Translations under genes and position numbers: made by a program | Part shown: positions 15,686 to 52,894 of the stretch, piece after piece | Position numbering within the stretch: position 1 is the stretch's first letter | Layout: every line of letters starts with the position of its first letter | The notes under the pieces: generated by a model | What the model was told of the DNA's origin: nothing | Databases searched by the model: none | The model's input: only the letters and a program-made list of their open reading frames with translations | Assembly: GCA_000002445.1 (NCBI GenBank) | Contig: CM000208.1 | Coordinates: forward strand, 3,488,001-3,552,000 | Length of the DNA stretch: 64,000 bases | Source: Trypanosoma brucei | Lineage: Eukaryota | Direction of reading: 5' to 3'

Positions 15686-16486
15686 TTAAGCAGCCACCAT
15701 CTTCCTTCCCATAGAGAGGAACTCGGAGTGCTCGTCGGTGGGGTCGCGCGACACCTCCGTCTCCGCCCAGAGGTCGGGGGTAAGGAAGCCGTATGTCTTG
15801 CGCAGTGCATAGAATGTGGCCATGATGAAATTACCACGCGTACGCGTCTTACCACATGAGCTAGTATATACGTCCTCAACGCCGGCAAACTCAAGAATCT
15901 TCTTCGGCACAGGCGCAGCAACGATACCAGCACCACGTGGAGCAGGGATCAAGCGAACGGCAACGGAGCCGCACTTCCCGGTTACCTTGATAGGGATTGT
16001 ATGCGGTTCACCGATCTTGTTACCCCAGTAGCCACGGCGCACAGGCACAATACTCAGCTTCGCAGCGATCATTGACGCACGGATGGCCAGGGACACCTCC
16101 TTGCCGACGCGGGCGCCGACACCAATGTGGCCGTTACCGTCACCAACAACATTGAAGGCCTTGAAGCGTGTGCGCTGTCCGGCAGACGTTGCCTTCTGCA
16201 CGGGGAAAACAAGCATCATCTCATCACGGAGGTCGCCTTCGCGGATCAGTTGGTCCACGATCTGATGCTCTTTGATGGGCATCGAGAAGAGGAAGATTTC
16301 CTCCAGCGAGGTGATCTTTTGATCCTTCACAAGGCGGCCAAGTTTTGTGCATGGCACCCATTCCTTCTCATCACCACCACCGCCACGACCGCCACGACCA
16401 CCGCGACCGCCGCGACCGCCACGTCCGCCACGGCCACGACCGAAGCCGCGCTGCTCGCCACCTGTACCGCGTGGTGCGTCAGCCAT
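15686..16486 (-). CDS. RPS2: 40S ribosomal protein S2 (uS5), copy 1, with an N-terminal RGG box
   Basis: 266 aa. GRGGRGG N-terminal repeats, then [14 protein letters not shown]...[29 protein letters not shown]...[16 protein letters not shown], which is diagnostic of S2/uS5. ATG at 16484-16486. Confidence 0.92.
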
Positions 16487-16968
16487 TCTCGGTTCAACTA
16501 TGACAGCTTATCGTTTCAAATAACGGAGGAAAAAGCAATAAAAAGAGCAAAGACAAATTTTTTAAAAAAAAAACGAAAGAAGGTGCTGCAGTGATCAAGG
16601 GAAAGGGAACCTCAAAAAGGGAATGAAGTACGCCGACGCCCACAGACAAACATACGTAGTCAAAAATTAATCAGAACGCCTTCTAATCGCAGAGATCGCT
16701 CGGTGAAAGCCACCCGAGTAGCTAGCAGCATGCTAGAAGATATTGTACATCTGTCTCCCCGCGAAAGGGAAAAAAAAACATACAAATAAACATATATACA
16801 CGCTATAATACAGTTCCTTCGACCTCGTCTATTCCCCTGAACTCTATTACCACTACAGTTCCACTCTCTCAATTTTTCCAACACTTAATTTGTGATAATG
16901 AAAAAGTTGGGGAACCCTAACTTCAGGAATATATATGTATGAGTATTTTCACCGGCGTGCCCTCACTC

Positions 16969-20570: not shown

Positions 20571-20726
20571 TTACCATGAATTAACGACCAACTTAAATAT
20601 TGCCTCCCCTTCGGGATTCTTGTCAGGATGTAACTCGAGCGCCTTCAGTTTGTAAGCCTCTCGTATTCCGTCCTTAGACGCAGTCCTTGGAACCCCCAGG
20701 ATCGCATAATAGTCCGCCTGCTGCAT
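20571..20726 (-). pseudogene. truncated J-domain gene fragment (51 codons) left at the boundary of the 3.1 kb segmental duplication
   Basis: Encodes [51 protein letters not shown]. The first 48 aa are identical to the N-terminus of the DnaJ protein at 35440-36771. Identity ends at the duplication boundary (about 20578) and a stop follows immediately. Confidence 0.75.
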
Positions 20727-21275
20727 ACCGTACTTTTTCCCTTCCCTTTCTCAGCAGTAATAAGGGAGAAGTGCAGTGGTAAAAGAAGTAGAAATAAAAT
20801 AAGAGACAGCGACTTTAAGAAGCAGCAACAGACTCATAGATCCAACAAGACAATCAATAGCGAGCTCGGCAAGCACGTAAGCACCGCCCCCATTTACACA
20901 CAAGAAAAAGGAAACATATACTCCGTTGCTTACACGGTCAAGGGGGAAGGATCATAGGGAAACCAGGCAAGCAAAGCCACAATACGTTTCGCCCCACTAT
21001 CGGCAGGGTAAACCACCACATATTAAAGACGAACAGGAAGACATGGAGACAACACGCCACGCACAGAAGCCACACCCAACGTATATAAGTGCGCGAGTCC
21101 CATCTTCTCACACTAGCCATCTATTACATTCAATACTGCATAGGACAAGGGCGTACAGAGAAAATTCAAGCAACCATTCTGAACCGGTTATCCAACAAAT
21201 AAAAATATGCTGCATTCCCTTAACCATCCACACCACAGCATCCTAAAAGGAATGACGGTAACGCACTACGTATGT

Positions 21276-22433
21276 CTATTCACCGTTCCGCCGTCTCTCC
21301 TCCTCTATCGCATCTTCCCATTCAAGATCCTCCATTATGCTCTCCGACTGCCGCAGTGCAGCTGGAAGGCGCGAAAGGACGAAGCCTACTGCGCAAAGTA
21401 ACACAATGGTCTCACCCCACAGTCCAATATATTCCTGCATGAAGTCCAGCCACGAAATTATCACACGGTATTTAAACGTTCCAAGCGTCATCTCCTGTCC
21501 CCATCCACCACTGCGAGCACTGGTATACCGCATATGCTCTGGAGGCTTTATCCCATAGAGAAGATAGTAATTACGTGCCTCAGGGTTCACAAGAATGTCG
21601 TATGCATCCTTCAGCTCCTCAAGAACCATCGACCGGTCTTCCTCATTCTTCTCCGTCTCTTCCACTAATTTCTTTTTTGTTTCGTATGCTCTCTTCAGTT
21701 CAGTGGGGTCGACTGAGCGTGCGTCCTTCGTATCCTTCGTGTCCAGCAAAACACTGAAAAGTTCACGGTCTACCTGAGAGGCAAGGCGATTGTACGCAAG
21801 CTCCACCTGTTGATTATTGGCTTCGCACGCACGACCACAGTGAACCAGCTGCCCTCGCGCATCCTGATGTTCTTTATACGCCTTACGGATTTCCTGCCGG
21901 ATGCGGTAGTTCTCCCGCCGTCGTTCCTTGTCAAGGTCCTCTCCACCTGCCTCATCAGCAGCAGCTCCGGTAGATTTCGGACGGATTCTCCCCTTCACAC
22001 CCAATATTTCGTAATAGCTCTCCGCTTCACTTGGAGTGACGGCACCATCATGAGTCGGATTGACCTCACCGAACCCTTTGCCACTCTCAATCTGAGGTGG
22101 CTCCAGGTTAAACTCCACGTCATACTTCGCTAACGCAAGCAACGAAATGGCAATCACTACCGCTACGGAGAAAAAAATGCGAAACATAGAGCCAGAATTT
22201 TCATGCTCGCCTACGACAGCATCCCACTCGGCTTGAGTGATTATACCACGGTTGGGGTCCCGTCGAGAGTAGCGGTTGGTATTAGCAAACCGTGAATTGG
22301 GCCGCTGCACACCATACATGGCGTTGTGCCGTGCAAACACATCCTCCCGAGCAGCACGAGCCGCGCTCTCCTCCAGCTTGTTACGCCGCTCCTGAGCCTG
22401 CTGCTGCCGTATTTGCGCTGCTCGAGGTATCAT
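21276..22433 (-). CDS. hypothetical membrane protein with a split or atypical J-domain-like sequence (copy 1 of 2)
   Basis: 385 aa from the first ATG at 22433. The track start is TTG. It has an N-terminal TM helix (MFRIFFSVAVVIAISLLAL), then YYEILGV ... KRAYETKKKLV ... AYDILVNPEARNYY reminiscent of J-domain helices II and IV, and a C-terminal TM segment. It is 99.7% identical to 37321-38478. Confidence 0.5.
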   Translation of the reverse strand: MIPRAAQIRQQQAQERRNKLEESAARAAREDVFARHNAMYGVQRPNSRFANTNRYSRRDPNRGIITQAEWDAVVGEHENSGSMFRIFFSVAVVIAISLLALAKYDVEFNLEPPQIESGKGFGEVNPTHDGAVTPSEAESYYEILGVKGRIRPKSTGAAADEAGGEDLDKERRRENYRIRQEIRKAYKEHQDARGQLVHCGRACEANNQQVELAYNRLASQVDRELFSVLLDTKDTKDARSVDPTELKRAYETKKKLVEETEKNEEDRSMVLEELKDAYDILVNPEARNYYLLYGIKPPEHMRYTSARSGGWGQEMTLGTFKYRVIISWLDFMQEYIGLWGETIVLLCAVGFVLSRLPAALRQSESIMEDLEWEDAIEEERRRNGE

Positions 22434-22943
22434 ACTTAGCAACTTAGAGCTACACTCCCCATTAGTAACAAATTAAAAACAGGATTCAAGGAAGAAGAGG
22501 GGGAAAAAAAAAAGAAACGGTGATACGACGGGGAAAATAATCGAAGGAAAGCAGTTTGGTGCGGAAATAGGATTGCGCAAACAATCGCAATGTAGTCGCC
22601 CACATACCACACAGTCAGTTACGTCCCTGTTATTACGTAAAATGATTAACGTCGATCATATAAATGATTTCATTATTCTTTTATTTTCCCCCACTCATAC
22701 AGAAAACTTCCATTTACTTCCGTTGCATATTCATCTTTCTTCTCTTGCCTTATAATAGTTTTTCTCGCTGTTATTCGCTGGTCCCTTCTTAATGTTCGTT
22801 TCCCCTCCCCACTCCAACCCGGGCGTAGGAAACGTGAAACACAAACATATAATCTCAGATCACACAGTCAGACAAAGAGCTCCCCACGCAGCCTCTCCCA
22901 CCAAACGTGGCTTTCCTACATCCTTTTGTCCACATTCCTATTC

Positions 22944-23630
22944 CTATTGCGGGGGGGATTTGTAGTAACCTGTAACCACAGCGTGGTCACGCTCGAACGG
23001 TTCCAGCGAGGCCTGTTCCTTCGGTCTCAGCCCTGAGTCCTTCAGCTTCTGCACCTCCGATGCAAAAACAGTAGCAGAGTCCGCTGTCGAATCAATGCAA
23101 TTGGCCTTTATCGAAATAACAAAACCACCGTTCTGTTTCAAAAAGTGTTGTGCATTCAGAGCTAATATTCGCGCCTGGTCGGGTTGAGCAACATCCATAA
23201 AGATGCAGTCTACCAAACGCGGTATCAGCATCCGATATTTCTGCGGGTAGCGGGCATCCTCAAGGATCGGGACAATATTACTCCGACGTTTCGACATCTC
23301 CTCCAGGTCACGCCCGCTACGGTGTGAGAACTCCACAGCGTACACAACACCCTCCGGACCCACCAAATCAGACACATGACTAACAGTTGTCCCACTGGCA
23401 GCACCCAGGTATAACACTGTTGAGCCCGGTTCCATGTATATCTGAGCAACACCAGCGTAAATCGCCGCCGCAAGTTTCGACCGGTATGGATTCCACACGC
23501 GGAACTCGCAGGACTCGGTCTCTCCGGCAATTGTACCGCTTACGCGCTTCTCACCGTATATGGAGACACCAGGTACGAGTGACTTTGTGGCAAGAGTGTC
23601 TTTACCCGCAAGGAGGTAGCAGCCACGCAT
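22944..23630 (-). CDS. fibrillarin paralogue lacking the N-terminal GAR domain, a truncated copy and possible pseudogene
   Basis: The fibrillarin methyltransferase core is 100% identical in protein to 38988-39902, over 239 aa. The internal Met codon of the full copy is GTG here (23661-23663) and an in-frame TAA lies 11 codons upstream. The first ATG is at 23630 ([11 protein letters not shown]...). Confidence 0.5.
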
Positions 23631-24060
23631 ACGAGCATGGGGTTGAAATATGTTGCCCTTCACCCCACCGCCGGCTTTGCCTCCGCCTCGTCCGCCAAAT
23701 TATTATACTACCAGTTAATGAAAACATTAACAATTTCGGTGCTACAACATTGTTCTTACGATATCTTATTATTTTCTGATGGGCGATTGTACTGTACAGG
23801 AGTCGTGGGGGGTATATATGAGAAAAAAGAGAGAGGAAAAAGGATAGGGTGTCGACCGCAACAAAAAAAAAAAGCAAAAGCCGTCCAAAAATTATGAGCG
23901 TGTACAAAAATGATCCAAATCCTTTGGCAACCGAAGTATGTAAAAGAAATAGCTGAGGCGATAGGTAAACCCCCGAGCCATACCGATGTATTGTCTGCAA
24001 CACATTCGTAATGTTCGGTGACGATATGGACCCTTTCCCGTTACTCAGCATACTTCTACG

Positions 24061-25770: not shown

Positions 25771-26946
25771 TCATCTGTCTTCAGTTCTCTGCTTGTCATC
25801 AACTGCCCCAAGCAACTTTGACTCCAAAAACGAAAACCGCGCCTCCAACGCGTCAAACCGCCCCGATATCTTTTTGTCCATGTTCTCCAGCATCGTCATG
25901 ATGTTTATCATAGTGGCTGAGATAAGCGGTTGCTCTGGCTCCGTATTCCCCTTCCCGCACGACGTCTGGTAGCTTACACTCGAGCCGGCTATGGGCATGG
26001 CCTCGGAGGAGGAATGCTGCGACAAAGCGGAACGGTCGAGCGGGAGGGGTTCCAGGTATACAACAGGGTCCCAAATAACTCGAACCAAATAGAGTGAATC
26101 CACAGAACTTGTGTACACGCACAGCCGCCACCGCTCATGCCGTCCTCTGTATTGGCACTCGTCAGTACAAAAAAATGTCGCTCGGTGATACGCGCTTCCC
26201 TCGTGAACTAATACCTTTTTGCTGCCGAGGGTAAAGGTCCACTTGTGGCCTAAAAAGGTTTCCTCATTGGGGGTAAATATCTCCGCTCGCGTGACGTATG
26301 TCATGCCGTTCCAGGAAGACGTGGGATGCTGGGCAGATGGACCGATGTAACACTTCTGAAGCTCCACATTGGCCGTCTCGAGACTAGACAGTAGCCCCAA
26401 TATGTCACGCTCGCCAATAAGGGGCGAGTTCCCCCAGTAAGGTGTTTCACAGTCCGTGTTACCCTGCTGGGGGGTAACCACTGTCGGTATCCTGTAGCGC
26501 TTGCCGGAAAAATGCATAACCGAATCATCTCCACTGCAACAAGAAAGATTCGTTTGCGGTCCGCGATCGACGGGCTCGGGACCATACTTCCCAACGAGTA
26601 TTGCCATCAATTGTTCTTCCTTCCCCTTATATGCAGCCAAATATTCCGATATTCTGCTCAGATTCTTTGGGTTGTACTGCTCGTAAAAGCGATGAAGTCG
26701 TTGATAGTACCTCGTGCAAGCGTCCCCATCCACACCAGATTGCTTCTCGTGGGCATAGCCGGAGTTACTCTCCCGCGACTCCCAAGCACTCTCAGTTAAA
26801 TTCGAGTGCATCCCTGATCGCACGCTGCACAGCAGTTGCTGAGGAGGAATATTTGAAGGGGGAGAACCACTTGAAGGAGTTGTGTTGCACTCCCGGTTAT
26901 GCGGCTTCGCACACTCGTCTGTTTCGGGGGGCGACAGGCCCTCCAT
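25771..26946 (-). CDS. hypothetical protein (391 aa) containing a YEQYNPKNLSRISEYLAAYKGKEEQLMAILVGKYGPEP motif
   Basis: Clean ATG at 26944-26946. Long ORF with a Ser/Pro-rich N-terminus. The internal motif looks like a conserved helical module, but I cannot assign it to a named family from memory. Confidence 0.45.
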   Translation of the reverse strand: MEGLSPPETDECAKPHNRECNTTPSSGSPPSNIPPQQLLCSVRSGMHSNLTESAWESRESNSGYAHEKQSGVDGDACTRYYQRLHRFYEQYNPKNLSRISEYLAAYKGKEEQLMAILVGKYGPEPVDRGPQTNLSCCSGDDSVMHFSGKRYRIPTVVTPQQGNTDCETPYWGNSPLIGERDILGLLSSLETANVELQKCYIGPSAQHPTSSWNGMTYVTRAEIFTPNEETFLGHKWTFTLGSKKVLVHEGSAYHRATFFCTDECQYRGRHERWRLCVYTSSVDSLYLVRVIWDPVVYLEPLPLDRSALSQHSSSEAMPIAGSSVSYQTSCGKGNTEPEQPLISATMINIMTMLENMDKKISGRFDALEARFSFLESKLLGAVDDKQRTEDR

Positions 26947-28511: not shown

Positions 28512-29435
28512 TCAATCGCGGAATACTGAGTCCAATGGGTTCGGTTCCGGCGCGGGATTTAGCGCCTTGTGAATCTTTGATTTCGCTTTAACGGCCTCGT
28601 TCATGTGTACCTTCTCCAGCCGCCGCGTCTTCCTGTCGCGACGCTGCTCCGTGGGGGTCCTGGCCAGCGCATTTTTCCAAATGACGTTCCCCTTGAAGCA
28701 CCCGTTGAATATGGACGTCGGCTCCAACGTAAAACGTGGTCCAATTTCCATCAATGACTTTGGCTCCGTGTCAATTATCTGGTAGTGACGGAACCATATG
28801 TGTCCATCAAGGTAGAAAAAGCACAAAATGTGGTCAACAAACGGCTTAGATCTTGGGTGATACCGTGGGGTATTGAATGTCATTTGGAGAAGCGACTTCA
28901 CGACCCGTAGGTGTGGTTGGGTCTCAAAATCCCTGTCAAAGTGGAGGAGCGGCCTACTATACTTCAAGCAGTTTCCAGCCATGCGTAGTTCATCTGCCGT
29001 GTGAACATTTGTTAATTGCATCTTCACACTGGGACCCCGCGGAGCCTGAGCAATCCAAAGGTAACTGATATCCTGGCGGTGAGCCTCAATAAAGAGTGAA
29101 CTATTGCACTGGTGAAGCTCGCAAAGTTCAATCACACTATCTCCTAGGCCACCAGTACGACCAAGCTTCGGGTGCTCCCGAGCGTGCGGCATTAAATTCC
29201 GAATGTCAAGAAGAAGATGGCGGTCTCGACTAGATATATTACGGGAGCCCAAAACTAGGCACTTCTGCCGGTTTGTCATCCGCTTATCCGTTGTTGCGCG
29301 TTTCAACTGCATTTCGCCGATCATTGACTCCTCCACCACACCCCTTTCCCCATGAACTTCTTGCTTTGTTTCCTGGGTCCCTCCATGTTCCTCACTTGAA
29401 TCGGCGAGCCGCTGACGTTTCTCCCTCTTAACCAT
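28512..29435 (-). CDS. Brix-domain ribosome-biogenesis protein (BRX1 / RPF / IMP4 family)
   Basis: 307 aa. ATG at 29433-29435. The Brix-domain core is RDRHLLLDIRNLMPHAREHPKL...SSLFIEAHRQDISYLWIAQAPRGPSVKMQLTNVHT...RPLLHFDRDFETQPHLRVVKSLLQMTF...HILCFFYLDGHIWFRHYQI. Basic N- and C-terminal extensions. Confidence 0.75.
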   Translation of the reverse strand: MVKREKRQRLADSSEEHGGTQETKQEVHGERGVVEESMIGEMQLKRATTDKRMTNRQKCLVLGSRNISSRDRHLLLDIRNLMPHAREHPKLGRTGGLGDSVIELCELHQCNSSLFIEAHRQDISYLWIAQAPRGPSVKMQLTNVHTADELRMAGNCLKYSRPLLHFDRDFETQPHLRVVKSLLQMTFNTPRYHPRSKPFVDHILCFFYLDGHIWFRHYQIIDTEPKSLMEIGPRFTLEPTSIFNGCFKGNVIWKNALARTPTEQRRDRKTRRLEKVHMNEAVKAKSKIHKALNPAPEPNPLDSVFRD

Positions 29436-29788: not shown

Positions 29789-30760
29789 TCATATGACGTC
29801 AAACTGCATGAGAAAAAAACCTACTAAGGACATAATGAGTAAGATGCAACAAACGTATAAGAAAACACTCATTGGCTTCATTTCCTTAACGAGCTTCTTC
29901 AGGCGTACGTTCAGAGTGTGCAGCTGCTCGGTTTGTTTATTCATGACCTGTTCCGTGTTATCTAAATGCTTATTTTGCATATCAATCTGCCCGCCAATCT
30001 CCAGTGCTAGGGTATGCAACCTAGACACTCCCTTTGAAACTACTTCAAGAGAATTTTGTATTTTCTTGTCCTGGGCCGCAATTGTCTTCATCGCCTCCGC
30101 CGTGTCCTCGTGATCCTCCAAGCGGCCTCCACCCACCGTGTCGTCTTCAAGGTTAGCCCCCGCGTACGGATCAACATGACCACCACCGTCCTTTTTGTCT
30201 CGCCACAATGAGCCAAGTTCGCCACGAAGTTGAGCCCTACGACCGACAAGCAATTCCTGACCCACATTCACCCCGCTCGTTGCAGCAATTCGCTGGTGAT
30301 CAGACTCCTTTACCAGCTCCAGAGTAGCAAGACAATCCTTATATTGTCCAGATTTGGCAGAATGTGCCTTCTCCAACAAAGCAATCTTGTGTGGTTTCGC
30401 TTTCTTCCTTCTGGTTTCCTTTTCAAGGGCAGCACCGGACTTATTCACTTCTTGCTTCATTTCTTCCAGTATAGTTTCAAGGTTTCTTATGTCTTTATGT
30501 ATGGCAAGTGATTGTTCCACAGCTATTCGGTCCTGACCGTGGCGCGCAGCGCCCTCATTGCGTTCCTTAATATTTTCCTTAACTCGCTCGACGCAGCGAA
30601 TGAACGCTAACGTCAAATCACGAAAGGGGTCGCCGGTCGTTTCTATCTCTTTGGGCTCATCCGTACGGCCCGCACGCTCACGCACACGGCGGATCCTCTT
30701 TATTGTCTCCCGCAGCATGGCACGCATGAAGCCATCCCTGTTGGGTAAGTAATTAGGCAT
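29789..30760 (-). CDS. Qc (or Qb)-SNARE-like tail-anchored protein (syntaxin 6/8-like SNARE motif)
   Basis: 323 aa. ATG at 30758-30760. A C-terminal heptad SNARE motif LHTLALEIGGQIDMQNKHLDNTEQVMNKQTEQLHTLNVRLKKLV with a central Q. It is followed by a single TM anchor (VFLYVCCILLIMSLVGFFLM) at the extreme C-terminus. Confidence 0.5.
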   Translation of the reverse strand: MPNYLPNRDGFMRAMLRETIKRIRRVRERAGRTDEPKEIETTGDPFRDLTLAFIRCVERVKENIKERNEGAARHGQDRIAVEQSLAIHKDIRNLETILEEMKQEVNKSGAALEKETRRKKAKPHKIALLEKAHSAKSGQYKDCLATLELVKESDHQRIAATSGVNVGQELLVGRRAQLRGELGSLWRDKKDGGGHVDPYAGANLEDDTVGGGRLEDHEDTAEAMKTIAAQDKKIQNSLEVVSKGVSRLHTLALEIGGQIDMQNKHLDNTEQVMNKQTEQLHTLNVRLKKLVKEMKPMSVFLYVCCILLIMSLVGFFLMQFDVI

Positions 30761-31236: not shown

Positions 31237-32265
31237 TTACCATACACCCTCACCGTTGCCAAGCTGACGGTTGATGGTTGTAGAATCGCGAAGGGAACGA
31301 AGAGGGTGTTCTCCCAAATCGGGTTGACGCACTCTGTTCATTGTGGGGCCGAAGTTCCGCTGCGGGAGTTGCGAGGGAGGGCCATAAGAATTGTATTGCA
31401 TTCCTTGGTGAAAAGGTCTTGTACTGCTCTCCAGTGGCCGCCAACCCATTGACGACAAGTCGACACCATGGTTAGGCTGCGGATTCCAGTGCGTATTTCG
31501 AGTGATATCCGACACTGCGACCGGATTCGGGAAAATACGAGCTGCAGCCGACGGTTCCGCCCGGTAGAAATGCTGGGACTGCGTGGTGGGCAAACCCAGC
31601 TGTGGTGGTTGTTCACCCGGTTGTCCAGAAAAGGTAAACGTGCATAAATTCTCTGACGCCACAGCTGTCACTCGTGGAGGCAGCACAGTTTGCTCCTCAA
31701 AGATACGGTCAATCTCAAGCACATAATACTTCACTGGAGGTGCCTGTTCCATTTCCTCTTCCTGTGGTTCGATGGGTACGTCCACAACGGGAATCTCTTC
31801 CTGTATAGTAATGTACGGAGGTTCTTCGTTGTTGCTCGGTGGTTCCATAGTTATAGGAACCTCATCCTGAACCTCAGCTGGTGAGTCTACAGCATCCTCC
31901 GTCACCGCAATCGTATCACCTCCATTCAAAAAGGTTACGGGTTCGGGTTCGGGTTCCGACTCCGGCTCCGGGGCCGGTAGAGCAACCACAACTTCGTTCT
32001 TACCGCGGGCGATCTCTAAAAACGAAGGTGAACTACCACCCCTCGCCCATGCATTAGAAGGAGGCACACGAACCTTTTGTTGCACCAAAGGGCCTTTGGT
32101 TGAAGGGGGGTCGGTTGGTCGCGAGTCCCCACCTTTGTTGCCTACGGGAGCCCTTTTTTTTGCCTCGTTTAGCGGTTGATTTTGCTTTTCCTCTTTATTT
32201 GGCCGACTGCGCGTACCATCCTTCTCATCCGCCTTCACGGGTCGTCCTTTACCTCTCGCGTTCAT
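31237..32265 (-). CDS. hypothetical Pro/Glu-rich low-complexity protein
   Basis: 342 aa from the first ATG at 32265. The track adds TTG-Leu. It contains a PEPESEPEPEP acidic repeat and P/Q-rich segments. No recognisable domain. Confidence 0.4.
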   Translation of the reverse strand: MNARGKGRPVKADEKDGTRSRPNKEEKQNQPLNEAKKRAPVGNKGGDSRPTDPPSTKGPLVQQKVRVPPSNAWARGGSSPSFLEIARGKNEVVVALPAPEPESEPEPEPVTFLNGGDTIAVTEDAVDSPAEVQDEVPITMEPPSNNEEPPYITIQEEIPVVDVPIEPQEEEMEQAPPVKYYVLEIDRIFEEQTVLPPRVTAVASENLCTFTFSGQPGEQPPQLGLPTTQSQHFYRAEPSAAARIFPNPVAVSDITRNTHWNPQPNHGVDLSSMGWRPLESSTRPFHQGMQYNSYGPPSQLPQRNFGPTMNRVRQPDLGEHPLRSLRDSTTINRQLGNGEGVW

Positions 32266-32527
32266 TAACAATCAACCGACAAAATAAAAATTACTACAGA
32301 CAATCCTTTTCTAGCAGAAAAATAACAAAAACCCTTTAGAGGCACCCCGAAAGGGGAAGAACATGAGGAAAAAGAACGAAGCATTCATAATACAACCACA
32401 AGCACTAAAAAGATAGGAGGAAAAAGAACAAGGTAAACGTACAAAGAGGCAACACACTCAAAACATTAAATTAAAAATACCAAACCGAAAAATAAAGCAG
32501 AAACAATCCTGTACAGCCCGGATCTCG

Positions 32528-33328
32528 TTAAGCAGCCACCATCTTCCTTCCCATAGAGAGGAACTCGGAGTGCTCGTCGGTGGGGTCGCGCGACACCTCC
32601 GTCTCCGCCCAGAGGTCGGGGGTAAGGAAGCCGTATGTCTTGCGCAGTGCATAGAATGTGGCCATGATGAAATTACCACGCGTACGCGTCTTACCACATG
32701 AGCTAGTATATACGTCCTCAACGCCGGCAAACTCAAGAATCTTCTTCGGCACAGGCGCAGCAACGATACCAGCACCACGTGGAGCAGGGATCAAGCGAAC
32801 GGCAACGGAGCCGCACTTCCCGGTTACCTTGATAGGGATTGTATGCGGTTCACCGATCTTGTTACCCCAGTAGCCACGGCGCACAGGCACAATACTCAGC
32901 TTCGCAGCGATCATTGACGCACGGATGGCCAGGGACACCTCCTTGCCGACGCGGGCGCCGACACCAATGTGGCCGTTACCGTCACCAACAACATTGAAGG
33001 CCTTGAAGCGTGTGCGCTGTCCGGCAGACGTTGCCTTCTGCACGGGGAAAACAAGCATCATCTCATCACGGAGGTCGCCTTCGCGGATCAGTTGGTCCAC
33101 GATCTGATGCTCTTTGATGGGCATCGAGAAGAGGAAGATTTCCTCCAGCGAGGTGATCTTTTGATCCTTCACAAGGCGGCCAAGTTTTGTGCATGGCACC
33201 CATTCCTTCTCATCACCACCACCGCCACGACCGCCACGACCACCGCGACCGCCGCGACCGCCACGTCCGCCACGGCCACGACCGAAGCCGCGCTGCTCGC
33301 CACCTGTACCGCGTGGTGCGTCAGCCAT
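32528..33328 (-). CDS. RPS2: 40S ribosomal protein S2 (uS5), copy 2
   Basis: The 266 aa product is identical to copy 1. DNA identity begins at the stop codon and ends 4 nt upstream of the ATG. The track's MRM start at 33334 is GTG. The true ATG is at 33326-33328. Confidence 0.92.
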
Positions 33329-33675
33329 TCTCACTGTTCTTGGACGTCTGCTTTGGGCGGGTCGACGGAAGTCGGCAGTGTTGAGTAGAAGTAGAAGAAA
33401 AAGAGGGAAATCGACAGGTAGGGAATCATATATATATATATATATTTATATGCAAATGTGTTAAAAAACTCAGAAATTCATGGTGATCAAATAGAAACAC
33501 CGCCGAAGCAGTGTCATTTAACGACAAAAAGTTGTTTGTCTGCGAGAAAAGTAATATCTGATGCCCTGACACGGTAAAGGATTTAACCCCTACATCGCTG
33601 CATCAGATGGGTATATCAGGGCGGTAGACAAAAGAGGAATTATTAGCAGGGGACAGTGGTTTAGATGACGAGTTC

Positions 33676-34851
33676 CTAGAGTTTTGTCTCCCTCTCCAGA
33701 AGACGCAAAAAATTTCCCGGCACAAGTCCCTTCCGCTCCAATTTCTTGTCATCAGTTGCGGTAGTTGCCTGGCACCAACCATTTTCCGTGTAGTCATCAA
33801 CAATAAACCGGTCCCCGGTCTTGAATCCAATAAACCCCTCTTTCTCGGGGGATACATAATCAAACATGGCTACGTAGACACGTCCACCATTACAGTGTTG
33901 CGCATCGTGTCGATTTGACGAGCGAGCCGTTGCCTCTACTGTCTCATCAGACCACTCCTCCTCACTACTACAATCTTCACTCTCAGACAGTTCATCCTGT
34001 AATTCATCATCCTCCTCACTCAGGGTCAAGTCAGAATCTTTTCGTCTTAAAGACTGCCGAGCTGTCCAGTTACGGTACCGAAGATGTGCCCGGTACAGTA
34101 TTTCCATGAGTATAAATAGTGCAACCCTTAAAACCCACGACTTCCATCTTCCGCCTGCTGGAGGCGCAGAAGACCCACTGGGGGCTAATTCCGCGGCTTT
34201 TGCAACCGCTGCTCCAGAAATCCCTTTTGGTACTGCACCCTCCTGACTCTTTACTATAGACTTCAGAGCCTTTATACTGTAGTACGTTCCAAAGCCAACC
34301 CCAAACAGTTCTAAGCCCGACCGCATTAATTGGAAAAGAATCTGAAGCACATGACCAACGACCTCGATGGTTGAGTGTATAGCCAGCTGCTTCTTCTGTT
34401 GGCGATGCCTTTCTACAGCCTCCTTTTCTTGTCGCCGGCGCGCCCGTCTCTCCCGGCGAGTTTCGGTTGCTAAGGGTTTAGCAAACTGCAGAGGCTGCTG
34501 CTGGTCAGGCTGGGAAGGTAACAACCCACCACCAGCCTGGTCACCGGGAAGCGCTAAGGCCCCATTCATGCCATTGCCGCCTATAGCACCACCAACTGGA
34601 TTGCCCAGAATGCCGTTCATCCCCATGCCACCATAGGTACCGCTCATTGAAGAAAGACCTCCTCCATACATTGAACTCATCCCGCCACCAAGGCCACCAT
34701 AAACTGAGCTCATCCCTCCGCCATAGCCACCGTACATTGAAGACATTCCAGTGCCGTACATCGATGGCATCCCTGCACCATAACCACCGTACATTGAAGA
34801 CATTCCACTGCCGTACATCGATGGCATCCCTGCACCATAACCACCGTACAT
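33676..34851 (-). CDS. PEX13: peroxin PEX13-like glycosomal import protein with an N-terminal YG/MYGG repeat region, a central membrane region, a C-terminal SH3 domain and a C-terminal TKL tripeptide
   Basis: The N-terminus has (S)MYGGYGAGMP repeats, encoded by a 57 bp DNA tandem repeat. Hydrophobic core. A C-terminal SH3-like sequence RVYVAMFDYVSPEKEGFIGFKTGDRFIVDDYTENGWCQ...GLVPGNFL. It ends ...ETKL. The YG-rich plus SH3 architecture is diagnostic of PEX13. The first ATG is at 34851, while the track start at 34926 is GTG. Confidence 0.7.
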   Translation of the reverse strand: MYGGYGAGMPSMYGSGMSSMYGGYGAGMPSMYGTGMSSMYGGYGGGMSSVYGGLGGGMSSMYGGGLSSMSGTYGGMGMNGILGNPVGGAIGGNGMNGALALPGDQAGGGLLPSQPDQQQPLQFAKPLATETRRERRARRRQEKEAVERHRQQKKQLAIHSTIEVVGHVLQILFQLMRSGLELFGVGFGTYYSIKALKSIVKSQEGAVPKGISGAAVAKAAELAPSGSSAPPAGGRWKSWVLRVALFILMEILYRAHLRYRNWTARQSLRRKDSDLTLSEEDDELQDELSESEDCSSEEEWSDETVEATARSSNRHDAQHCNGGRVYVAMFDYVSPEKEGFIGFKTGDRFIVDDYTENGWCQATTATDDKKLERKGLVPGNFLRLLERETKL

Positions 34852-34860
34852 TTTTCCTTC
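34690..34860 (-). repeat. 57 bp in-frame tandem repeat (about 3 units) encoding the MYGGYGAGMPSMYG(S/T)GMSS repeats of PEX13
   Basis: cattgaagacattcca[c/g]tgccgtacatcgatggcatccctgcaccataaccaccgtaca is repeated back to back. Confidence 0.8.
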
Positions 34861-35439: not shown

Positions 35440-36771
35440 TTATAGTTTCCACTCATCCAAGTTAATTGGTTGACCTGATCGCTTCGCCTCCCGCAATGCA
35501 TCAAGCTTCGCCTGCATTTCGGCCTCAATGCGGTCGGTTTCACGTCTCATTGCCTCCACGTCGTCTTGATGACGCTGGCGTTCCAAGACAATTTGTTCCA
35601 ACAAGGCCTTTCGTTTCCCATCAAGCTCTCGTGTTGCCTTCAGGCGTGCTTCCTCCTGCTCAGCGGTCAGTTGGCGCAATGTCTCTTCCTGGTGCTGCTC
35701 CTCCTGACGTTGGAGCTCTTCTTGCCTCAACCGCGCTTCCTCTTCCTGTTTCCGCTTCGCCTCTCGAGCTTTCTCCGATGCTTCGTGTTGAGCTTGTTGA
35801 GCAAGGGCTTCTATTATCTTCAGCTCCGCTTTTTGCAATTCCGATGCTATATCTTGTTCGCGCTGCCTCTGGCGTTCACGGCGTGAGCGTTCCTGTTCAG
35901 TTGTGTCTTGCTGAGCCTGTTCCTTCTCAGTAGCCAAGCGTCGCCGCTCCTCCTCTAGTTCTCTCTTTTTAGTAGCAAGCTCCTTGAGATGGGTATCGAG
36001 ATCCACCTGCTGTTTCTTCTGAAACTCAGCATACTCAGCCATCTTCTGTTTCTCTTGTTCGGCCTTGTGTTGCCTTGTAGCCGCCTCCCTCTCACGGCGA
36101 CGGTTCTCTTCTTCCCACGCCATCCTTGCCCTCTCGCGCTCCAACTCCTCTTCCCGTTCGCGCTCTCTCTTCTCCTGGAGATTCCTCCATTCCTCCGCTC
36201 GCTTCTTTTCCTCGGTCTCCAACTGTTTTGCATAGTCTAGTTTAGCTTTGCAAACCTCTTCGGCCTGTCTAAGTTCTTCTTGTTTTCTTTTGAACCATTC
36301 TGAGAAGCTTGTTTCCGAGTTGCCGGGTCTACGAAAGCCTTCACAGTTATTTTTCGAATTCGGGGCACTGCCCCCGTACGTCCCCTTTGTATACTGCATA
36401 AAGATATCTTCAAACAATTTCTCTTCTGACATCGGGTTTGCTCTAGAAGTACGCGTACCATAAGAATTGGGAACAGGGCCCGCCGCGTTCGCTGCCCTTT
36501 CAGTGGCATTTGGTCTCGGTACATTGTGGGCTCGCGCCGTAGGACCATCCCGCCGAACTTCTCTCAGGCCTATCTCTTGATCATACTTTCGACGCTTAGT
36601 GGGCGAACGCAATATCTGGTATGCATTAACGACCAACTTAAATATTGCCTCCCCTTCGGGATTCTTGTCAGGATGTAACTCGAGCGCCTTCAGTTTGTAA
36701 GCCTCTCGTATTCCGTCCTTAGACGCAGTCCTTGGAACCCCCAGGATCGCATAATAGTCCGCCTGCTGCAT
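35440..36771 (-). CDS. DnaJ (J-domain) protein with a long charged coiled-coil (E/R/K/Q-rich) C-terminal region
   Basis: 443 aa. ATG at 36769-36771. The N-terminal canonical J domain is [60 protein letters not shown], with the HPD motif. The remainder is highly charged ER/EK repeats, such as EEERRRLATEKEQAQQ. Confidence 0.8.
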   Translation of the reverse strand: MQQADYYAILGVPRTASKDGIREAYKLKALELHPDKNPEGEAIFKLVVNAYQILRSPTKRRKYDQEIGLREVRRDGPTARAHNVPRPNATERAANAAGPVPNSYGTRTSRANPMSEEKLFEDIFMQYTKGTYGGSAPNSKNNCEGFRRPGNSETSFSEWFKRKQEELRQAEEVCKAKLDYAKQLETEEKKRAEEWRNLQEKREREREEELERERARMAWEEENRRREREAATRQHKAEQEKQKMAEYAEFQKKQQVDLDTHLKELATKKRELEEERRRLATEKEQAQQDTTEQERSRRERQRQREQDIASELQKAELKIIEALAQQAQHEASEKAREAKRKQEEEARLRQEELQRQEEQHQEETLRQLTAEQEEARLKATRELDGKRKALLEQIVLERQRHQDDVEAMRRETDRIEAEMQAKLDALREAKRSGQPINLDEWKL

Positions 36772-39738
36772 ACCGTACTTTTTCCCTTCCCTTTCTCAGC
36801 AGTAATAAGGGAGAAGTGCAGTGGTAAAAGAAGTAGAAATAAAATAAGAGACAGCGACTTTAAGAAGCAGCAACAGACTCATAGATCCAACAAGACAATC
36901 AATAGCGAGCTCGGCAAGCACGTAAGCACCGCCCCCATTTACACACAAGAAAAAGGAAACATATACTCCGTTGCTTACACGGTCAAGGGGGAAGGATCAT
37001 AGGGAAACCAGGCAAGCAAAGCCACAATACGTTTCGCCCCACTATCGGCAGGGTAAACCACCACATATTAAAGACGAACAGGAAGACATGGAGACAACAC
37101 GCCACGCACAGAAGCCACACCCAACGTATATAAGTGCGCGAGTCCCATCTTCTCACACTAGCCATCTATTACATTCAATACTGCATAGGACAAGGGCGTA
37201 CAGAGAAAATTCAAGCAACCATTCTGAACCGGTTATCCAACAAATAAAAATATGCTGCATTCCCTTAACCATCCACACCACAGCATCCTAAAAGGAATGA
37301 CGGTAACGCACTACGTATGTCTATTCACCGTTCCGCCGTCTCTCCTCCTCTATCGCATCTTCCCATTCAAGATCCTCCATTATGCTCTCCGACTGCCGCA
37401 GTGCAGCTGGAAGGCGCGAAAGGACGAAGCCTACTGCGCAAAGTAACACAATGGTCTCACCCCACAGTCCAATATATTCCTGCATGAAGTCCAGCCACGA
37501 AATTATCACACGGTATTTAAACGTTCCAAGCGTCATCTCCTGTCCCCATCCACCACTGCGAGCACTGGTATACCGCATATGCTCTGGAGGCTTTATCCCA
37601 TAGAGAAGATAGTAATTACGTGCCTCAGGGTTCACAAGAATGTCGTATGCATCCTTCAGCTCCTCAAGAACCATCGACCGGTCTTCCTCATTCTTCTCCG
37701 TCTCTTCCACTAATTTCTTTTTTGTTTCGTATGCTCTCTTCAGTTCAGTGGGGTCGACTGAGCGTGCGTCCTTCGTATCCTTCGTGTCCAGCAAAACACT
37801 GAAAAGTTCACGGTCTACCTGAGAGGCAAGGCGATTGTACGCAAGCTCCACCTGTTGATTCTTGGCTTCGCACGCACGACCACAGTGAACCAGCTGCCCT
37901 CGCGCATCCTGATGTTCTTTATACGCCTTACGGATTTCCTGCCGGATGCGGTAGTTCTCCCGCCGTCGTTCCTTGTCAAGGTCCTCTCCACCTGCCTCAT
38001 CAGCAGCAGCTCCGGTAGATTTCGGACGGATTCTCCCCTTCACACCCAATATTTCGTAATAGCTCTCCGCTTCACTTGGAGTGACGGCACCATCATGAGT
38101 CGGATTGACCTCACCGAACCCTTTGCCACTCTCAATCTGAGGTGGCTCCAGGTTAAACTCCACGTCATACTTCGCTAACGCAAGCAACGAAATGGCAATC
38201 ACTACCGCTACGGAGAAAAAAATGCGAAACATAGAGCCAGAATTTTCATGCTCGCCTACGACAGCATCCCACTCGGCTTGAGTGATTATACCACGGTTGG
38301 GGTCCCGTCGAGAGTAGCGGTTGGTATTAGCAAACCGTGAATTGGGCCGCTGCACACCATACATGGCGTTGTGCCGTGCAAACACATCCTCCCGAGCAGC
38401 ACGAGCCGCGCTCTCCTCCAGCTTGTTACGCCGCTCCTGAGCCTGCTGCTGCCGTATTTGCGCTGCTCGAGGTATCATACTTAGCAACTTAGAGCTACAC
38501 TCCCCATTAGTAACAAATTAAAAACAGGATTCAAGGAAGAAGAGGGGAAAAAAAAAAGAAACGGTGATACGACGGGGAAAATAATCGAAGGAAAGCAGTT
38601 TGGTGCGGAAATAGGATTGCGCAAACAATCGCAATGTAGTCGCCCACATACCACACAGTCAGTTACGTCCCTGTTATTACGTAAAATGATTAACGTCGAT
38701 CATATAAATGATTTCATTATTCTTTTATTTTCCCCCACTCATACAGAAAACTTCCATTTACTTCCGTTGCATATTCATCTTTCTTCTCTTGCCTTATAAT
38801 AGTTTTTCTCGCTGTTATTCGCTGGTCCCTTCTTAATGTTCGTTTCCCCTCCCCACTCCAACCCGGGCATAGGAAACGTGAAACACAAACATATAATCTC
38901 AGATCACACAGTCAGACAAAGAGCTCCCCGCGCAGCCTCTCCCACCAAACGTGGCTTTCCTACATCCTTTTGTCCACATTCCTATTCCTATTGCGGGGGG
39001 GATTTGTAGTAACCTGTAACCACAGCGTGGTCACGCTCGAACGGTTCCAGCGAGGCCTGTTCCTTCGGTCTCAGCCCTGAGTCCTTCAGCTTCTGCACCT
39101 CCGATGCAAAAACAGTAGCAGAGTCCGCTGTCGAATCAATGCAATTGGCCTTTATCGAAATAACAAAACCACCGTTCTGTTTCAAAAAGTGTTGTGCATT
39201 CAGAGCTAATATTCGCGCCTGGTCGGGTTGAGCAACATCCATAAAGATGCAGTCTACCAAACGCGGTATCAGCATCCGATATTTCTGCGGGTAGCGGGCA
39301 TCCTCAAGGATCGGGACAATATTACTCCGACGTTTCGACATCTCCTCCAGGTCACGCCCGCTACGGTGTGAGAACTCCACAGCGTACACAACACCCTCCG
39401 GACCCACCAAATCAGACACATGACTAACAGTTGTCCCACTGGCAGCACCCAGGTATAACACTGTTGAGCCCGGTTCCATGTATATCTGAGCAACACCAGC
39501 GTAAATCGCCGCCGCAAGTTTCGACCGGTATGGATTCCACACGCGGAACTCGCAGGACTCGGTCTCTCCGGCAATTGTACCGCTTACGCGCTTCTCACCG
39601 TATATGGAGACACCAGGTACGAGTGACTTTGTGGCAAGAGTGTCTTTACCCGCAAGGAGGTAGCAGCCACGCATACGAGCATGGGGTTGGAATATGTTGC
39701 CCTTCATCCCACCGCCGGCTTTGCCTCCGCCTCGTCCA
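36623..39738. repeat. segmental duplication copy A2, the likely source copy, whose flanking genes are intact
   Basis: Same block as 20578-23694. Here the left end continues into a full DnaJ gene and the right end into a full GAR-domain fibrillarin. Confidence 0.9.
37321..38478 (-). CDS. hypothetical membrane protein with a split J-domain-like sequence (copy 2 of 2)
   Basis: Identical to 21276-22433 except for a few substitutions (N to K, I to R). It lies inside the 3.1 kb duplicated block. Confidence 0.5.
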   Translation of the reverse strand: MIPRAAQIRQQQAQERRNKLEESAARAAREDVFARHNAMYGVQRPNSRFANTNRYSRRDPNRGIITQAEWDAVVGEHENSGSMFRIFFSVAVVIAISLLALAKYDVEFNLEPPQIESGKGFGEVNPTHDGAVTPSEAESYYEILGVKGRIRPKSTGAAADEAGGEDLDKERRRENYRIRQEIRKAYKEHQDARGQLVHCGRACEAKNQQVELAYNRLASQVDRELFSVLLDTKDTKDARSVDPTELKRAYETKKKLVEETEKNEEDRSMVLEELKDAYDILVNPEARNYYLLYGIKPPEHMRYTSARSGGWGQEMTLGTFKYRVIISWLDFMQEYIGLWGETIVLLCAVGFVLSRLPAALRQSESIMEDLEWEDAIEEERRRNGE

Positions 39739-39902
39739 CCTCCGCGGCCCCCACCTCGGCCTCCTCCGCGACCGCCACGGCCGGAGCCACGACCCCCGCC
39801 GCGTCCACCACCGCCGCCGCCGCCGAAAGCTCCCCGTCCTCTACCGCCACGGCCAAAGCCGCCACCACCAGCACCGCGGCCGCCCCCTCTACCACCGCGC
39901 AT
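38988..39902 (-). CDS. NOP1: fibrillarin (rRNA 2'-O-methyltransferase NOP1) with an N-terminal GAR domain
   Basis: 304 aa. ATG at 39900-39902. The N-terminal roughly 65 aa are RGG/GGRG repeats. The core [40 protein letters not shown]...[37 protein letters not shown]...[11 protein letters not shown]...[13 protein letters not shown]...[13 protein letters not shown] is canonical fibrillarin. Confidence 0.92.
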
Positions 39903-52239: not shown

Positions 52240-52894
52240 CTTTTAGCTTAACACTATAATTAAGAAAGACCCCTTCACTTTTCTAATTAGTGCTGCGTAT
52301 TTTAAAAGCGAAAAAATTAAAAATTAAAGAGGTTAAAGATGTGGCAGGGACGGTAACTGACGACGAGACAAAAAAAAGAAAAAAAAAGACTCGCACAGCT
52401 ACTGCACCCACGAAACCTTTAAAAAACATTCGTAAACAGAGCGTTAAACGCCACACGCACTAACGTAGGGCAGCATACATCAATTGCTAATTATCATTTA
52501 AGTGAACGACAAAAAACAATGAATCGCTAAAACATTATCCCCCATAAATCGGGAGTAACAAATAAAAACCAGCAACGGCACATTCTATTCCTAACATTCA
52601 ACAATAGTGTCCATGCATACACTTCAAACTGCAAGACTACTACTTACCTACGCTAAAGAATTAAAACAAACGTCACCGTGCTAACAGAAATTAATATGCA
52701 TCAAAGCCACTTCCACAGTTTGCGCTCGTTGCCGCTCATGATAATCGTGACCTTCTTGGCCTTTGCCCTATTTTTTTTCTCTTAAAACAAACATATATCT
52801 CATCAAAGGCAGGTTCCCCCGCGCGCACTGCGTCCGTGATCCCGCACCCTACTGAAAACAGAAGATGACGGTACAACGTACCTCAATGAAATCA

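What the first reader, a model, noticed from the sequence alone, without database searches (positions are those of the whole stretch)
33676..34851. PEX13-like protein ending in TKL, a PTS1-like tripeptide, with 57 bp DNA tandem repeats encoding its YG-rich N-terminus
The SH3 plus YG-rich architecture identifies a PEX13 docking-complex peroxin. The C-terminal -TKL resembles a type-1 peroxisomal/glycosomal targeting signal, which is unexpected on a membrane peroxin. The N-terminal Gly/Tyr repeats are encoded by near-perfect 57 bp repeats, so repeat number is likely variable.
Basis: partly seen in the sequence, partly recalled or inferred. Interest (0 to 1): 0.55.

Follow-up and report, generated by a model that had tools for sequence, protein, structure and literature searches.

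The report
Known trypanosome peroxin PEX13.1 gene
This is the already characterised Trypanosoma brucei glycosome import protein PEX13.1 (Tb927.10.14720), whose odd C-terminal -TKL signal has been published and tested by deletion, so the finding is correct but not new.

Summary
A minus-strand ORF runs from the ATG at 34851 to the TAG at 33676-33678. It encodes 391 aa with 11 Tyr-Gly dipeptides in the first 75 residues, two hydrophobic helices, an SH3 domain (residues 326-384) and a C-terminal -TKL. The first 141 nt are 2.5 copies of a 57-bp unit; units 1 and 2 match at 56 of 57 positions.

The protein is identical to T. b. brucei TREU927 XP_827950.1 (Tb10.61.1950). [quoted passage not shown] The proposed TKL-deletion test has been done (Bauer et al. 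2016). The tripeptide is not needed for glycosome targeting, but it is needed for ER localisation in low glucose.

The prediction that repeat number varies is not supported within T. brucei: three subspecies genomes all encode 391 aa. Their differences cluster in the repeat in a pattern that looks like gene conversion. Between species, a 33-bp repeat ranges from 3.3 to 5.3 copies.

One small addition: deeper kinetoplastid homologues end in Q-K-[F/M/I], H-K-F or T-R-M instead of TKL, with a tail of nearly fixed length.

Verdict: already known, low interest.

The parts
33676..34851 (-). Complete CDS of TbPEX13.1 (Tb927.10.14720): 391 codons plus a TAG stop
   Evidence: ORF list and translation. 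100% identical to XP_827950.1, T. b. brucei TREU927. Gene ID and name come from PMC4689576 and the supplement of PMC9512073.
34627..34851 (-). Tyr-Gly/Met-Ser-rich N-terminal region (residues 1-75, 11 YG dipeptides), predicted disordered
   Evidence: Composition count. AF2 pLDDT is below 50 for residues 1-126. The same region is YG/MG-rich in all homologues.
34711..34851 (-). 57-bp tandem repeat, 2.5 copies, each unit encoding a 19-aa unit MYGGYGAGMPSMYG(S/T)GMSS
   Evidence: TRF score 256, 95% matches. Units 1 and 2 are 56/57 identical, against a maximum of 33/57 in 300 shuffles. Same copy number in gambiense and equiperdum.
34664..34741 (-). Degenerate 33-bp (11-aa) repeat, the ancestral unit shared with other trypanosomatid PEX13.1 genes
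   Evidence: TRF period 33, 2.4 copies, 75% matches. The 33-bp repeat has 3.9, 5.3 and 3.3 copies in T. cruzi, T. grayi and L. major.
34267..34389 (-). First hydrophobic/amphipathic helix (about residues 155-195) holding the most conserved motif of the family, RSGLELFGVGFGTYYSIKA. The literature predicts a transmembrane segment here.
   Evidence: Kyte-Doolittle peak at 155-176. AF2 helix 132-204 with pLDDT 74-84. Invariant columns R177, S178, E181, L182, V185, G188, Y191, S192.
34078..34146 (-). Second hydrophobic helix (about residues 236-258, WKSWVLRVALFILMEILYRAHL), a predicted transmembrane segment
   Evidence: Kyte-Doolittle peak at 239-258. AF2 helix 234-276. The literature states two TM regions.
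33892..34044 (-). Acidic Ser/Glu/Asp-rich linker (residues 270-320), predicted disordered
   Evidence: Sequence. AF2 pLDDT is below 50 for residues 272-320.
33700..33876 (-). SH3 domain (residues 326-384)
   Evidence: Pfam SH3_2 at 28.2 bits against a 21.8 cut-off. PDB 7z35, T. cruzi PEX13 SH3, E=1.3e-24 by sequence and top Foldseek hit. Bauer et al. deleted residues 325-384 as 'the SH3 domain'.
33679..33687 (-). C-terminal tripeptide Thr-Lys-Leu (PTS1-like), followed by TAG at 33676-33678
   Evidence: Read directly from the sequence. Conserved as TKL in 11 of 12 homologues of the first search. AF2 pLDDT is below 50 for residues 388-391, i.e. a flexible tail. TbGALE, which also ends in -TKL, is glycosomal.

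Best explanation
The ORF is TbPEX13.1 (Tb927.10.14720) of Trypanosoma brucei brucei TREU927, chromosome 10. It is an essential integral membrane protein of the glycosome (a specialised peroxisome) and part of the docking/translocation complex for matrix-protein import.

Shown in the literature for this protein:
- It localises to glycosomes, and both its N-terminus and its C-terminal SH3 domain face the cytosol.
- It interacts with PEX14, PEX5 and PEX13.2.
- Silencing it is lethal and mislocalises both PTS1 and PTS2 proteins.
- Deleting the C-terminal tripeptide leaves glycosome targeting intact but abolishes the ER localisation seen in low glucose.

Inferred:
- The flexible, cytosol-exposed -TKL most likely acts as a ligand for the PTS1-binding TPR domain of PEX5, or for an equivalent C-terminus reader. 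In that role it would affect trafficking or retention of PEX13.1, or receptor docking, rather than serve as a matrix-import signal.
- By analogy with yeast and human PEX13 (my own knowledge), the disordered YG-rich N-terminus contributes a cohesive Tyr/Gly phase to the translocon.
- The YG region is encoded by short tandem DNA repeats. In the T. brucei lineage an ancestral 33-bp unit was remodelled into a 57-bp unit. Slippage and gene conversion keep the units similar, and copy number changes between species but not detectably within T. brucei.
For: Identity: the protein is 100% identical to XP_827950.1 / Tb10.61.1950. The gene order Brix, two ORFs without a Pfam match (annotated syntaxin and hypothetical protein), RPS2, PEX13, DnaJ, hypothetical, 304-aa ORF (annotated fibrillarin) matches Tb927.10.14680-14750. 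Supplementary Figure 10 of PMC9512073 lists Tb927.10.14720 as PEX13.1 with a YG half, two TM regions, an SH3 domain and a PTS1.

Architecture re-derived here: SH3, YG composition and hydrophobic helices, AF2 model.

Function from papers.

Selection on the tail: TKL is invariant in trypanosomatid orthologues while the residues just before it vary (ERE, EGE, EGG, EHF, ERT, ERA, ERI). Deeper homologues keep x-[K/R]-hydrophobic. -TKL works as a PTS1 on TbGALE.

Repeat dynamics.
Against: No sequence bridge to canonical PEX13 was found. Pfam Peroxin-13_N is absent from all 13 family members. A profile of the central module finds only 24 proteins among 1.84 billion representatives, all with the same kinetoplastid-type architecture. 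Homology to other eukaryotes' PEX13, as opposed to functional equivalence, therefore rests on architecture and published experiments.

Direct binding of -TKL to PEX5 is not reported in the papers I could read. Bauer et al. call its function 'unclear'. Their methods section also writes the deleted tripeptide as 'SKL', an inconsistency in that paper.
Confidence: 0.97

Rival explanations
1. The -TKL ending is a chance C-terminus with no function, since any tripeptide can look like the loose PTS1 consensus.
For: PTS1-like tripeptides are short and degenerate. The tripeptide is not needed for glycosomal localisation. The C-terminus faces the cytosol, so it cannot be acting as a matrix-import signal for the whole protein.
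Against: TKL is identical in every full-length trypanosomatid orthologue down to 32% overall identity, while the preceding residues vary. Deeper kinetoplastid homologues keep a basic residue at -2 and a hydrophobic one at -1, and the tail length is almost fixed. Deletion changes localisation in low glucose. Attempts to tag the C-terminus failed.
Confidence: 0.03
2. The protein is a generic SH3 adaptor with a low-complexity Gly-rich tail, not a true homologue of PEX13. On this view kinetoplastids recruited an unrelated SH3 membrane protein to the import complex, so the architecture is convergent.
For: No Peroxin-13_N Pfam match in any member. The SH3 domain scores as well against Fyn, Src and Yes as against anything except the T. 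cruzi orthologue. The central module has no relatives outside a set of 24 proteins. The literature reports only 7-18% identity to other PEX13s.
Against: The order of elements (YG-rich region, two membrane helices, C-terminal SH3) is the same as in yeast and animal PEX13. The interaction partners PEX14 and PEX5 and the import phenotype also match. Whichever is true, its function as the PEX13 of glycosomes is experimentally established.
Confidence: 0.1
3. The near-perfect 57-bp repeat is an assembly artefact or a hypervariable minisatellite whose copy number differs between strains.
For: Units 1 and 2 differ at 1 of 57 nt, the kind of repeat that often varies or is mis-assembled.
Against: Three independent assemblies (TREU927 = the window, gambiense DAL972, equiperdum) all have a 1176-nt CDS with 2.5 units. 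The 90% cluster in a collection of 15 billion proteins holds only these three 391-aa sequences.
Confidence: 0.05

Closest known systems
TbPEX13.1 (Tb927.10.14720; Verplaetse, Rigden & Michels 2009; Brennand et al. 2012; Bauer et al. 2016)
   Same: It is the same gene. The sequence is identical to the TREU927 protein, with the same length, SH3 coordinates (325-384), YG-rich N-terminus, two TM regions and C-terminal -TKL.
   Different: Nothing differs. The window is the reference-strain locus.
Canonical PEX13 of yeast and animals (Pfam Peroxin-13_N plus a C-terminal SH3 domain)
   Same: Same order of modules: YG-rich N-terminal region, two membrane segments, cytosolic C-terminal SH3. Same partners (PEX14, PEX5) and same role in matrix-protein import.
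   Different: No N-terminal proline-rich/KPWE region and no detectable Peroxin-13_N sequence match. Identity is only 7-18%. [quoted passage not shown] Kinetoplastids also have a second paralogue, PEX13.2, which lacks the SH3 domain.
T. cruzi PEX13 SH3 domain, PDB 7z35
   Same: Orthologous SH3 domain: 57% identity over the domain, TM-score 0.84 normalised to the target. The construct also ends in -ETKL.
   Different: Different species. Only 56 of the 81 construct residues are in the searched chain, so the tail is probably not ordered in the crystal (my inference from the lengths).
PTS1-bearing glycosomal matrix proteins, e.g. TbGALE ending in -TKL
   Same: Identical C-terminal tripeptide. TbGALE is experimentally glycosomal.
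   Different: PEX13.1 is an integral membrane protein whose C-terminus stays in the cytosol, and its targeting does not depend on the tripeptide. The only other reported combination of a transmembrane domain and a PTS1 in trypanosomes is MDo2.

Membership tests
PEX13 (peroxin 13, docking/translocon component) | Gly/Tyr-rich (YG) N-terminal region | tested here: met
   11 YG dipeptides and 30 Gly in the first 80 residues. Conserved in all homologues.
PEX13 (peroxin 13, docking/translocon component) | Two membrane-spanning or hydrophobic helices in the central part | tested here: met
   Kyte-Doolittle peaks at 155-176 and 239-258. AF2 helices 132-204 and 234-276 with pLDDT 74-87. The hydropathy is modest, with a maximum of 1.41. 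The literature predicts two TM regions and shows that PEX13.2 resists carbonate extraction.
PEX13 (peroxin 13, docking/translocon component) | C-terminal SH3 domain (present in the yeast and animal type) | tested here: met
   Pfam SH3_2 above its gathering score. PDB 7z35, PEX13 SH3 of T. cruzi, E=1.3e-24. Foldseek top hit.
PEX13 (peroxin 13, docking/translocon component) | Sequence match to Pfam Peroxin-13_N (PF04088) | tested here: not met
   No hit at E<=10 in any of the 13 family members or in 10 more distant homologues at E<=0.1. This agrees with the published 7-18% identity. The family is a highly divergent PEX13 lineage, classified by function.
PEX13 (peroxin 13, docking/translocon component) | Location in the peroxisomal/glycosomal membrane, binding to PEX14 and PEX5, and requirement for matrix-protein import | not testable with these tools
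   Published for this protein: glycosomal localisation, yeast two-hybrid and co-IP with PEX14, PEX5 and PEX13.2, and RNAi lethality with import defects.
Kinetoplastid PEX13.1 subfamily | YG region without an upstream Pro-rich motif, two TM regions, an SH3 domain, and a C-terminal PTS1-like tripeptide | tested here: met
   All are present. The protein starts directly with MYGGYG. It is identical to Tb927.10.14720, the type member.
PTS1 (type-1 peroxisomal targeting signal) | C-terminal tripeptide fitting [S/A/C and similar small residues]-[K/R/H]-[L/M] | tested here: met
   -TKL sits at the true C-terminus. The same tripeptide targets TbGALE to glycosomes. The strict consensus quoted is (S/A/C)-(K/R/H)-L, so Thr is a relaxed variant.
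PTS1 (type-1 peroxisomal targeting signal) | Necessary for import or targeting of the bearer via PEX5 | not testable with these tools
   Published result: deletion does not prevent glycosomal localisation. It therefore does not behave as a classical PTS1 for this protein. PEX5 binding is not reported in the papers I read.

The most novel reading that the evidence does not exclude
The extreme C-terminus of PEX13.1 may be a conserved 'pseudo-cargo' ligand across all Kinetoplastea. It would be a flexible tail of fixed length (about 8-9 residues beyond the last SH3 strand) ending in x-[K/R]-hydrophobic: TKL in trypanosomatids; QKM, QKF, QKI, HKF, NKF or TRM in bodonid-like and environmental lineages. 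This tail would dock the PTS1-binding TPR pocket of PEX5 directly onto the translocon, or gate PEX13.1 exit from the ER. That would be a receptor-translocon contact with no counterpart in yeast or human PEX13. The non-TKL endings and the fixed tail length seen here do not appear in the text I could read, and the supplementary figures are held only as images. The function of the tripeptide is still called unclear.
Probability: 0.3. Interest if true: 0.5.

Novelty: already known. Interest (0 to 1): 0.1.

Why it matters
Glycosome import is a validated drug-target pathway in trypanosomatid parasites, and PEX13.1 is essential. The PTS1-like tail on a membrane peroxin is a real, still unexplained oddity. 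It was published in 2009, reviewed repeatedly, and tested by deletion in 2016, so the scan finding adds nothing new to the field.

This re-examination adds three small points. Repeat number is stable in the three T. brucei subspecies genomes, with gene-conversion-like patchwork between units. The repeat unit is 33 bp in other trypanosomatids and has been remodelled to 57 bp in T. brucei. Deep kinetoplastid homologues replace TKL with Q-K-[F/M/I]-type endings on a tail of fixed length.

Tried and rejected
1. Exact-protein look-up with the window reference including the stop codon found nothing. Look-ups with P0001 and P0014 worked.

2. A literature search for the PDB code 7Z35 found no paper, so no published analysis of the tail in that structure could be read.

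3. I looked for a sequence bridge to canonical PEX13 and found none.
- A Pfam scan of all 13 family members at E<=10 gave only SH3 families and noise.
- The family profile against PDB sequences gave the T. cruzi PEX13 SH3, then generic Fyn, Src and PACSIN SH3 domains. No yeast or human PEX13 SH3 appeared in the top 60.
- A profile of the central module (A2) against 1.84 billion representatives gave 24 hits, all of the same architecture.

4. I asked whether the other 391-aa ORF in the window (25771-26946) is a paralogue. It is not: BLASTP E=0.028 over 31 residues and no Pfam domain.

5. The full-length AF2 model has low overall confidence (pLDDT 57, pTM 0.23) because more than half of the protein is predicted disordered. 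I used only the helices and the SH3 domain. I did not run Foldseek against AFDB, because only the SH3 domain would drive the matches.

Full report
**1. Observation**

The region 33676-34851 holds a minus-strand ORF. From the first ATG at 34849-34851 it translates to 391 residues and a TAG stop at 33676-33678. The protein ends ...GNFLRLLERETKL. The longest mechanical ORF extends upstream to a GTG at 34926. However, every orthologue begins MYGG... at the ATG, and the database entries are 391 aa.

The N-terminal 80 residues contain 30 Gly, 15 Met, 14 Ser and 11 Tyr, and each Tyr is followed by Gly. Pfam finds a single SH3 domain at residues 326-384. SH3_2 scores 28.2 bits against a cut-off of 21.8, while SH3_9 and SH3_1 fall just below theirs.

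Tandem Repeats Finder reports a 57-bp period at 34711-34852 with 2.5 copies, 95% matches and score 256. It also reports a degenerate 33-bp period at 34664-34741. On the coding strand, units 1 and 2 are 56/57 identical. Unit 3 matches only over about its first 28 nt. In 300 codon shuffles of the first 100 codons the best 57-nt tandem identity was 33/57, so the repeat is far beyond what the biased composition produces. The only caveat is that the "57 bp repeats" amount to two full units plus half a unit.

**2. Identity**

The protein is identical over all 391 residues to XP_827950.1 / EAN78838.1, [quoted passage not shown], old locus tag Tb10.61.1950. It differs by A26G from T. b. gambiense DAL972, and by A26G plus T34S from T. 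b. equiperdum, where NCBI calls it "peroxin 13".

All ORFs of 220 aa or more in the window lie on the minus strand, as expected for a trypanosomatid polycistronic unit. The local order is:

| Window position | Product | Basis |
|---|---|---|
| 28512-29435 | Brix-domain protein | Pfam match |
| 29789-30760 | listed as syntaxin, putative | annotation table; no Pfam match here |
| 31237-32271 | listed as hypothetical protein, conserved | annotation table; no Pfam match here |
| 32528-33334 | ribosomal protein S2/uS5 | Pfam match |
| 33676-34851 | this gene | see above |
| 35440-36771 | DnaJ protein | Pfam match |
| 37321-38487 | listed as hypothetical protein, conserved | annotation table; no Pfam match here |
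| 38988-39902 | 304-aa ORF, listed as fibrillarin, putative | annotation table; not scanned here |

[quoted passage not shown] The same DnaJ-PEX13-RPS2 neighbourhood is seen in gambiense, equiperdum, T. cruzi and T. grayi.

**3. What is already published**

[quoted passage not shown] Its Supplementary Figure 10 lists Tb927.10.14720 as the T. brucei PEX13.1. It says all kinetoplastid sequences have the YG-rich N-terminal half, two predicted TM regions, and an SH3(-like) domain followed by a PTS1.

Functional data are as follows.
- Both termini face the cytosol.
- The protein interacts with PEX14, PEX5 and PEX13.2.
- Silencing is lethal and mislocalises PTS1 and PTS2 proteins.

Bauer et al. 2016 (PMC5215699) deleted the C-terminal tripeptide. 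[quoted passage not shown] Their methods section writes the deleted tripeptide as "SKL", which is inconsistent with the gene.

The tripeptide -TKL is a working PTS1 elsewhere in T. brucei, since TbGALE is glycosomal. A 2024 preprint notes that the combination of a transmembrane domain and a PTS1 had been reported only for PEX13.1 before MDo2. A crystal structure of the T. cruzi PEX13 SH3 domain exists as PDB 7z35, released in 2023. It matches this protein at E=1.3e-24 and is the top Foldseek hit.

**4. Independent re-derivation of the anatomy**

An AlphaFold2 model built on the 13-sequence alignment gives the following.

| Residues | Prediction |
|---|---|
| 1-126 | disordered |
| 132-204 | long helix, pLDDT 74-84; contains the family's most conserved motif, RSGLELFGVGFGTYYSIKA |
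| 234-276 | second helix |
| 272-320 | disordered acidic linker |
| 321-384 | SH3 domain, pLDDT 75-89 |
| 388-391 | last four residues, pLDDT below 50 |

The low confidence of the last four residues fits a free, flexible tail. Hydropathy peaks lie at 155-176 and 239-258.

**5. Membership versus function**

By sequence alone the protein cannot be tied to canonical PEX13.
- None of the 13 family members hits Pfam Peroxin-13_N, even at E<=10.
- The family profile against PDB sequences returns the T. cruzi orthologue and then generic Fyn, Yes, Src and PACSIN SH3 domains.
- A profile of the central module (A2, residues 126-262) searched against 1.84 billion representative proteins finds only 24 proteins at E<=0.001. 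Those I retrieved all show the same architecture: a YG/MG-rich region, the module, and where the sequence is complete an SH3 domain.

This agrees with the published figure of 7-18% identity to other PEX13s.

**6. The tail across the family**

In the first homologue set, 11 of 12 sequences end in TKL; one other (P0008) is truncated and the remaining one (P0013) ends in HKF. These cover T. melophagium, theileri, grayi, cruzi, rangeli and conorhini, L. major and several unnamed sequences. The three residues before the tripeptide vary.

More distant homologues from the exhaustive search have these endings:

| Ending | Sequences |
|---|---|
| TKL | P0016-P0019, P0021, P0023, P0026 |
| TKM | P0022 |
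| QKM | P0027 (Cryptobia/Trypanoplasma borreli, EukProt EP00758) and P0025 |
| QKF | P0024, P0030, P0031, P0034, P0035 |
| QKI | P0033 |
| HKF | P0013 |
| NKF | P0029 |
| TRM | P0028 |
| RLL | P0032 (most divergent) |

Apart from P0032 they keep a basic residue at -2 and a hydrophobic residue at -1. The distance from the conserved PGN[F/Y] motif of the last SH3 strand to the C-terminus is almost constant, at 10-11 residues after the Asn. This argues for selection on a C-terminal ligand of defined reach, not on TKL as such. Whether Q-K-F/M endings are PEX5 ligands is not known.

**7. The repeat**

The three T. brucei-group genomes have CDSs of identical length, 1176 nt, with 2.5 units of 57 bp each. 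The 90%-identity cluster in a collection of 15 billion proteins contains only these three 391-aa sequences. The prediction of variable repeat number is therefore not supported within the available sample.

The repeat is nonetheless where the variation sits. Of the 5-6 nucleotide differences between the window and the other two subspecies, 4-5 lie in the first 171 nt. The differences at nt 69, 75 and 77 together convert the 5' part of unit 2 from the unit-1 version (TREU927) to the unit-3 version (gambiense, equiperdum). The difference at nt 101 in equiperdum makes unit 2 match unit 1. This patchwork looks like gene conversion or unequal exchange between units.

In other species the 5' end carries a 33-bp (11-aa, GGYGGGMSSMY-like) tandem repeat with a different copy number: 3.9 in T. 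cruzi, 5.3 in T. grayi and 3.3 in L. major. Copy number therefore does change on the between-species scale. The 57-bp unit of T. brucei (33 + 24 bp) is a lineage-specific remodelling.

**8. Mechanism**

Shown by others: PEX13.1 is an essential membrane component of the glycosomal import complex, and the tripeptide affects ER versus glycosome distribution but not glycosomal targeting.

Inferred here: the exposed, flexible, conserved x-K/R-hydrophobic C-terminus most likely serves as a ligand for the PTS1 pocket of PEX5, or for another reader of C-termini. It would influence receptor docking or PEX13.1 trafficking.

From my own knowledge of yeast and human PEX13: the YG-rich region probably forms the cohesive Tyr/Gly phase of the translocon. 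I did not test this here.

**9. Verdict**

Novelty: already known. Interest: low.

Noticed in passing
window 15686-16490 and 32528-33332: The ribosomal protein S2 (uS5) coding sequence is present twice, 100% identical over 805 bp and 16.8 kb apart. The second copy lies immediately downstream of PEX13.1.
   Followed up: partly
window 20576-23693 and 36621-39737: A 3.1-kb dispersed duplication at 99.8% identity. It covers the 5' end of the DnaJ ORF (35440-36771), a 388-aa ORF with no Pfam match (21276-22442 and 37321-38487), and part of the next ORF, annotated as fibrillarin in the published gene list. PEX13.1 and most of the DnaJ gene sit between the second copies of the two duplications.
   Followed up: partly
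window 52711-56644: Three tandem copies, with a 1380-bp period and 99.8-99.9% identity, of a 307-aa mitochondrial carrier family ORF (52895-53818, 54275-55198, 55655-56578).
   Followed up: partly
window 60154-60233: A perfect (TG)40 dinucleotide microsatellite.
   Followed up: no
window 5656-5816: A 78-bp tandem repeat (2 copies, 80% matches) inside the 685-aa minus-strand ORF 5511-7568. The + strand is C/A-rich, so it probably encodes a Gly-rich stretch on the coding strand.
   Followed up: no
window 33216-33274: A 9-bp repeat (6.6 copies, 88% matches) encodes the RGG/GRG-rich N-terminus ([10 protein letters not shown]...) of the RPS2 gene next to PEX13.1.
   Followed up: no
window 34681-34794 (CDS nt 58-171); L001 and L002 3058-3171: Between T. 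brucei subspecies, 4-5 of the 5-6 CDS differences cluster in repeat units 2-3. The changes at nt 69, 75 and 77 switch the 5' half of unit 2 between the unit-1 and unit-3 versions, a gene-conversion-like patchwork.
   Followed up: yes
P0013, P0022, P0024-P0035 (homologues; L006 2422-3639 for P0013): Distant PEX13.1 homologues, including Cryptobia borreli, end in QKM, QKF, QKI, HKF, NKF, TRM or TKM instead of TKL. The tail length after the PGN[F/Y] motif is almost fixed. One sequence, P0032, ends in RLL.
   Followed up: partly
window 35440-36771: The neighbouring DnaJ-domain protein is a 443-aa, highly charged (E/R/K/Q-rich) protein ending in -WKL. It is syntenic with PEX13.1 in T. brucei, T. 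cruzi and T. grayi. I did not examine whether -WKL has any targeting meaning.
   Followed up: no
PMC5215699, methods section: The paper that deleted the PEX13.1 PTS1 describes the removed tripeptide as 'SKL', whereas the gene encodes TKL. This is probably a slip in the text.
   Followed up: no
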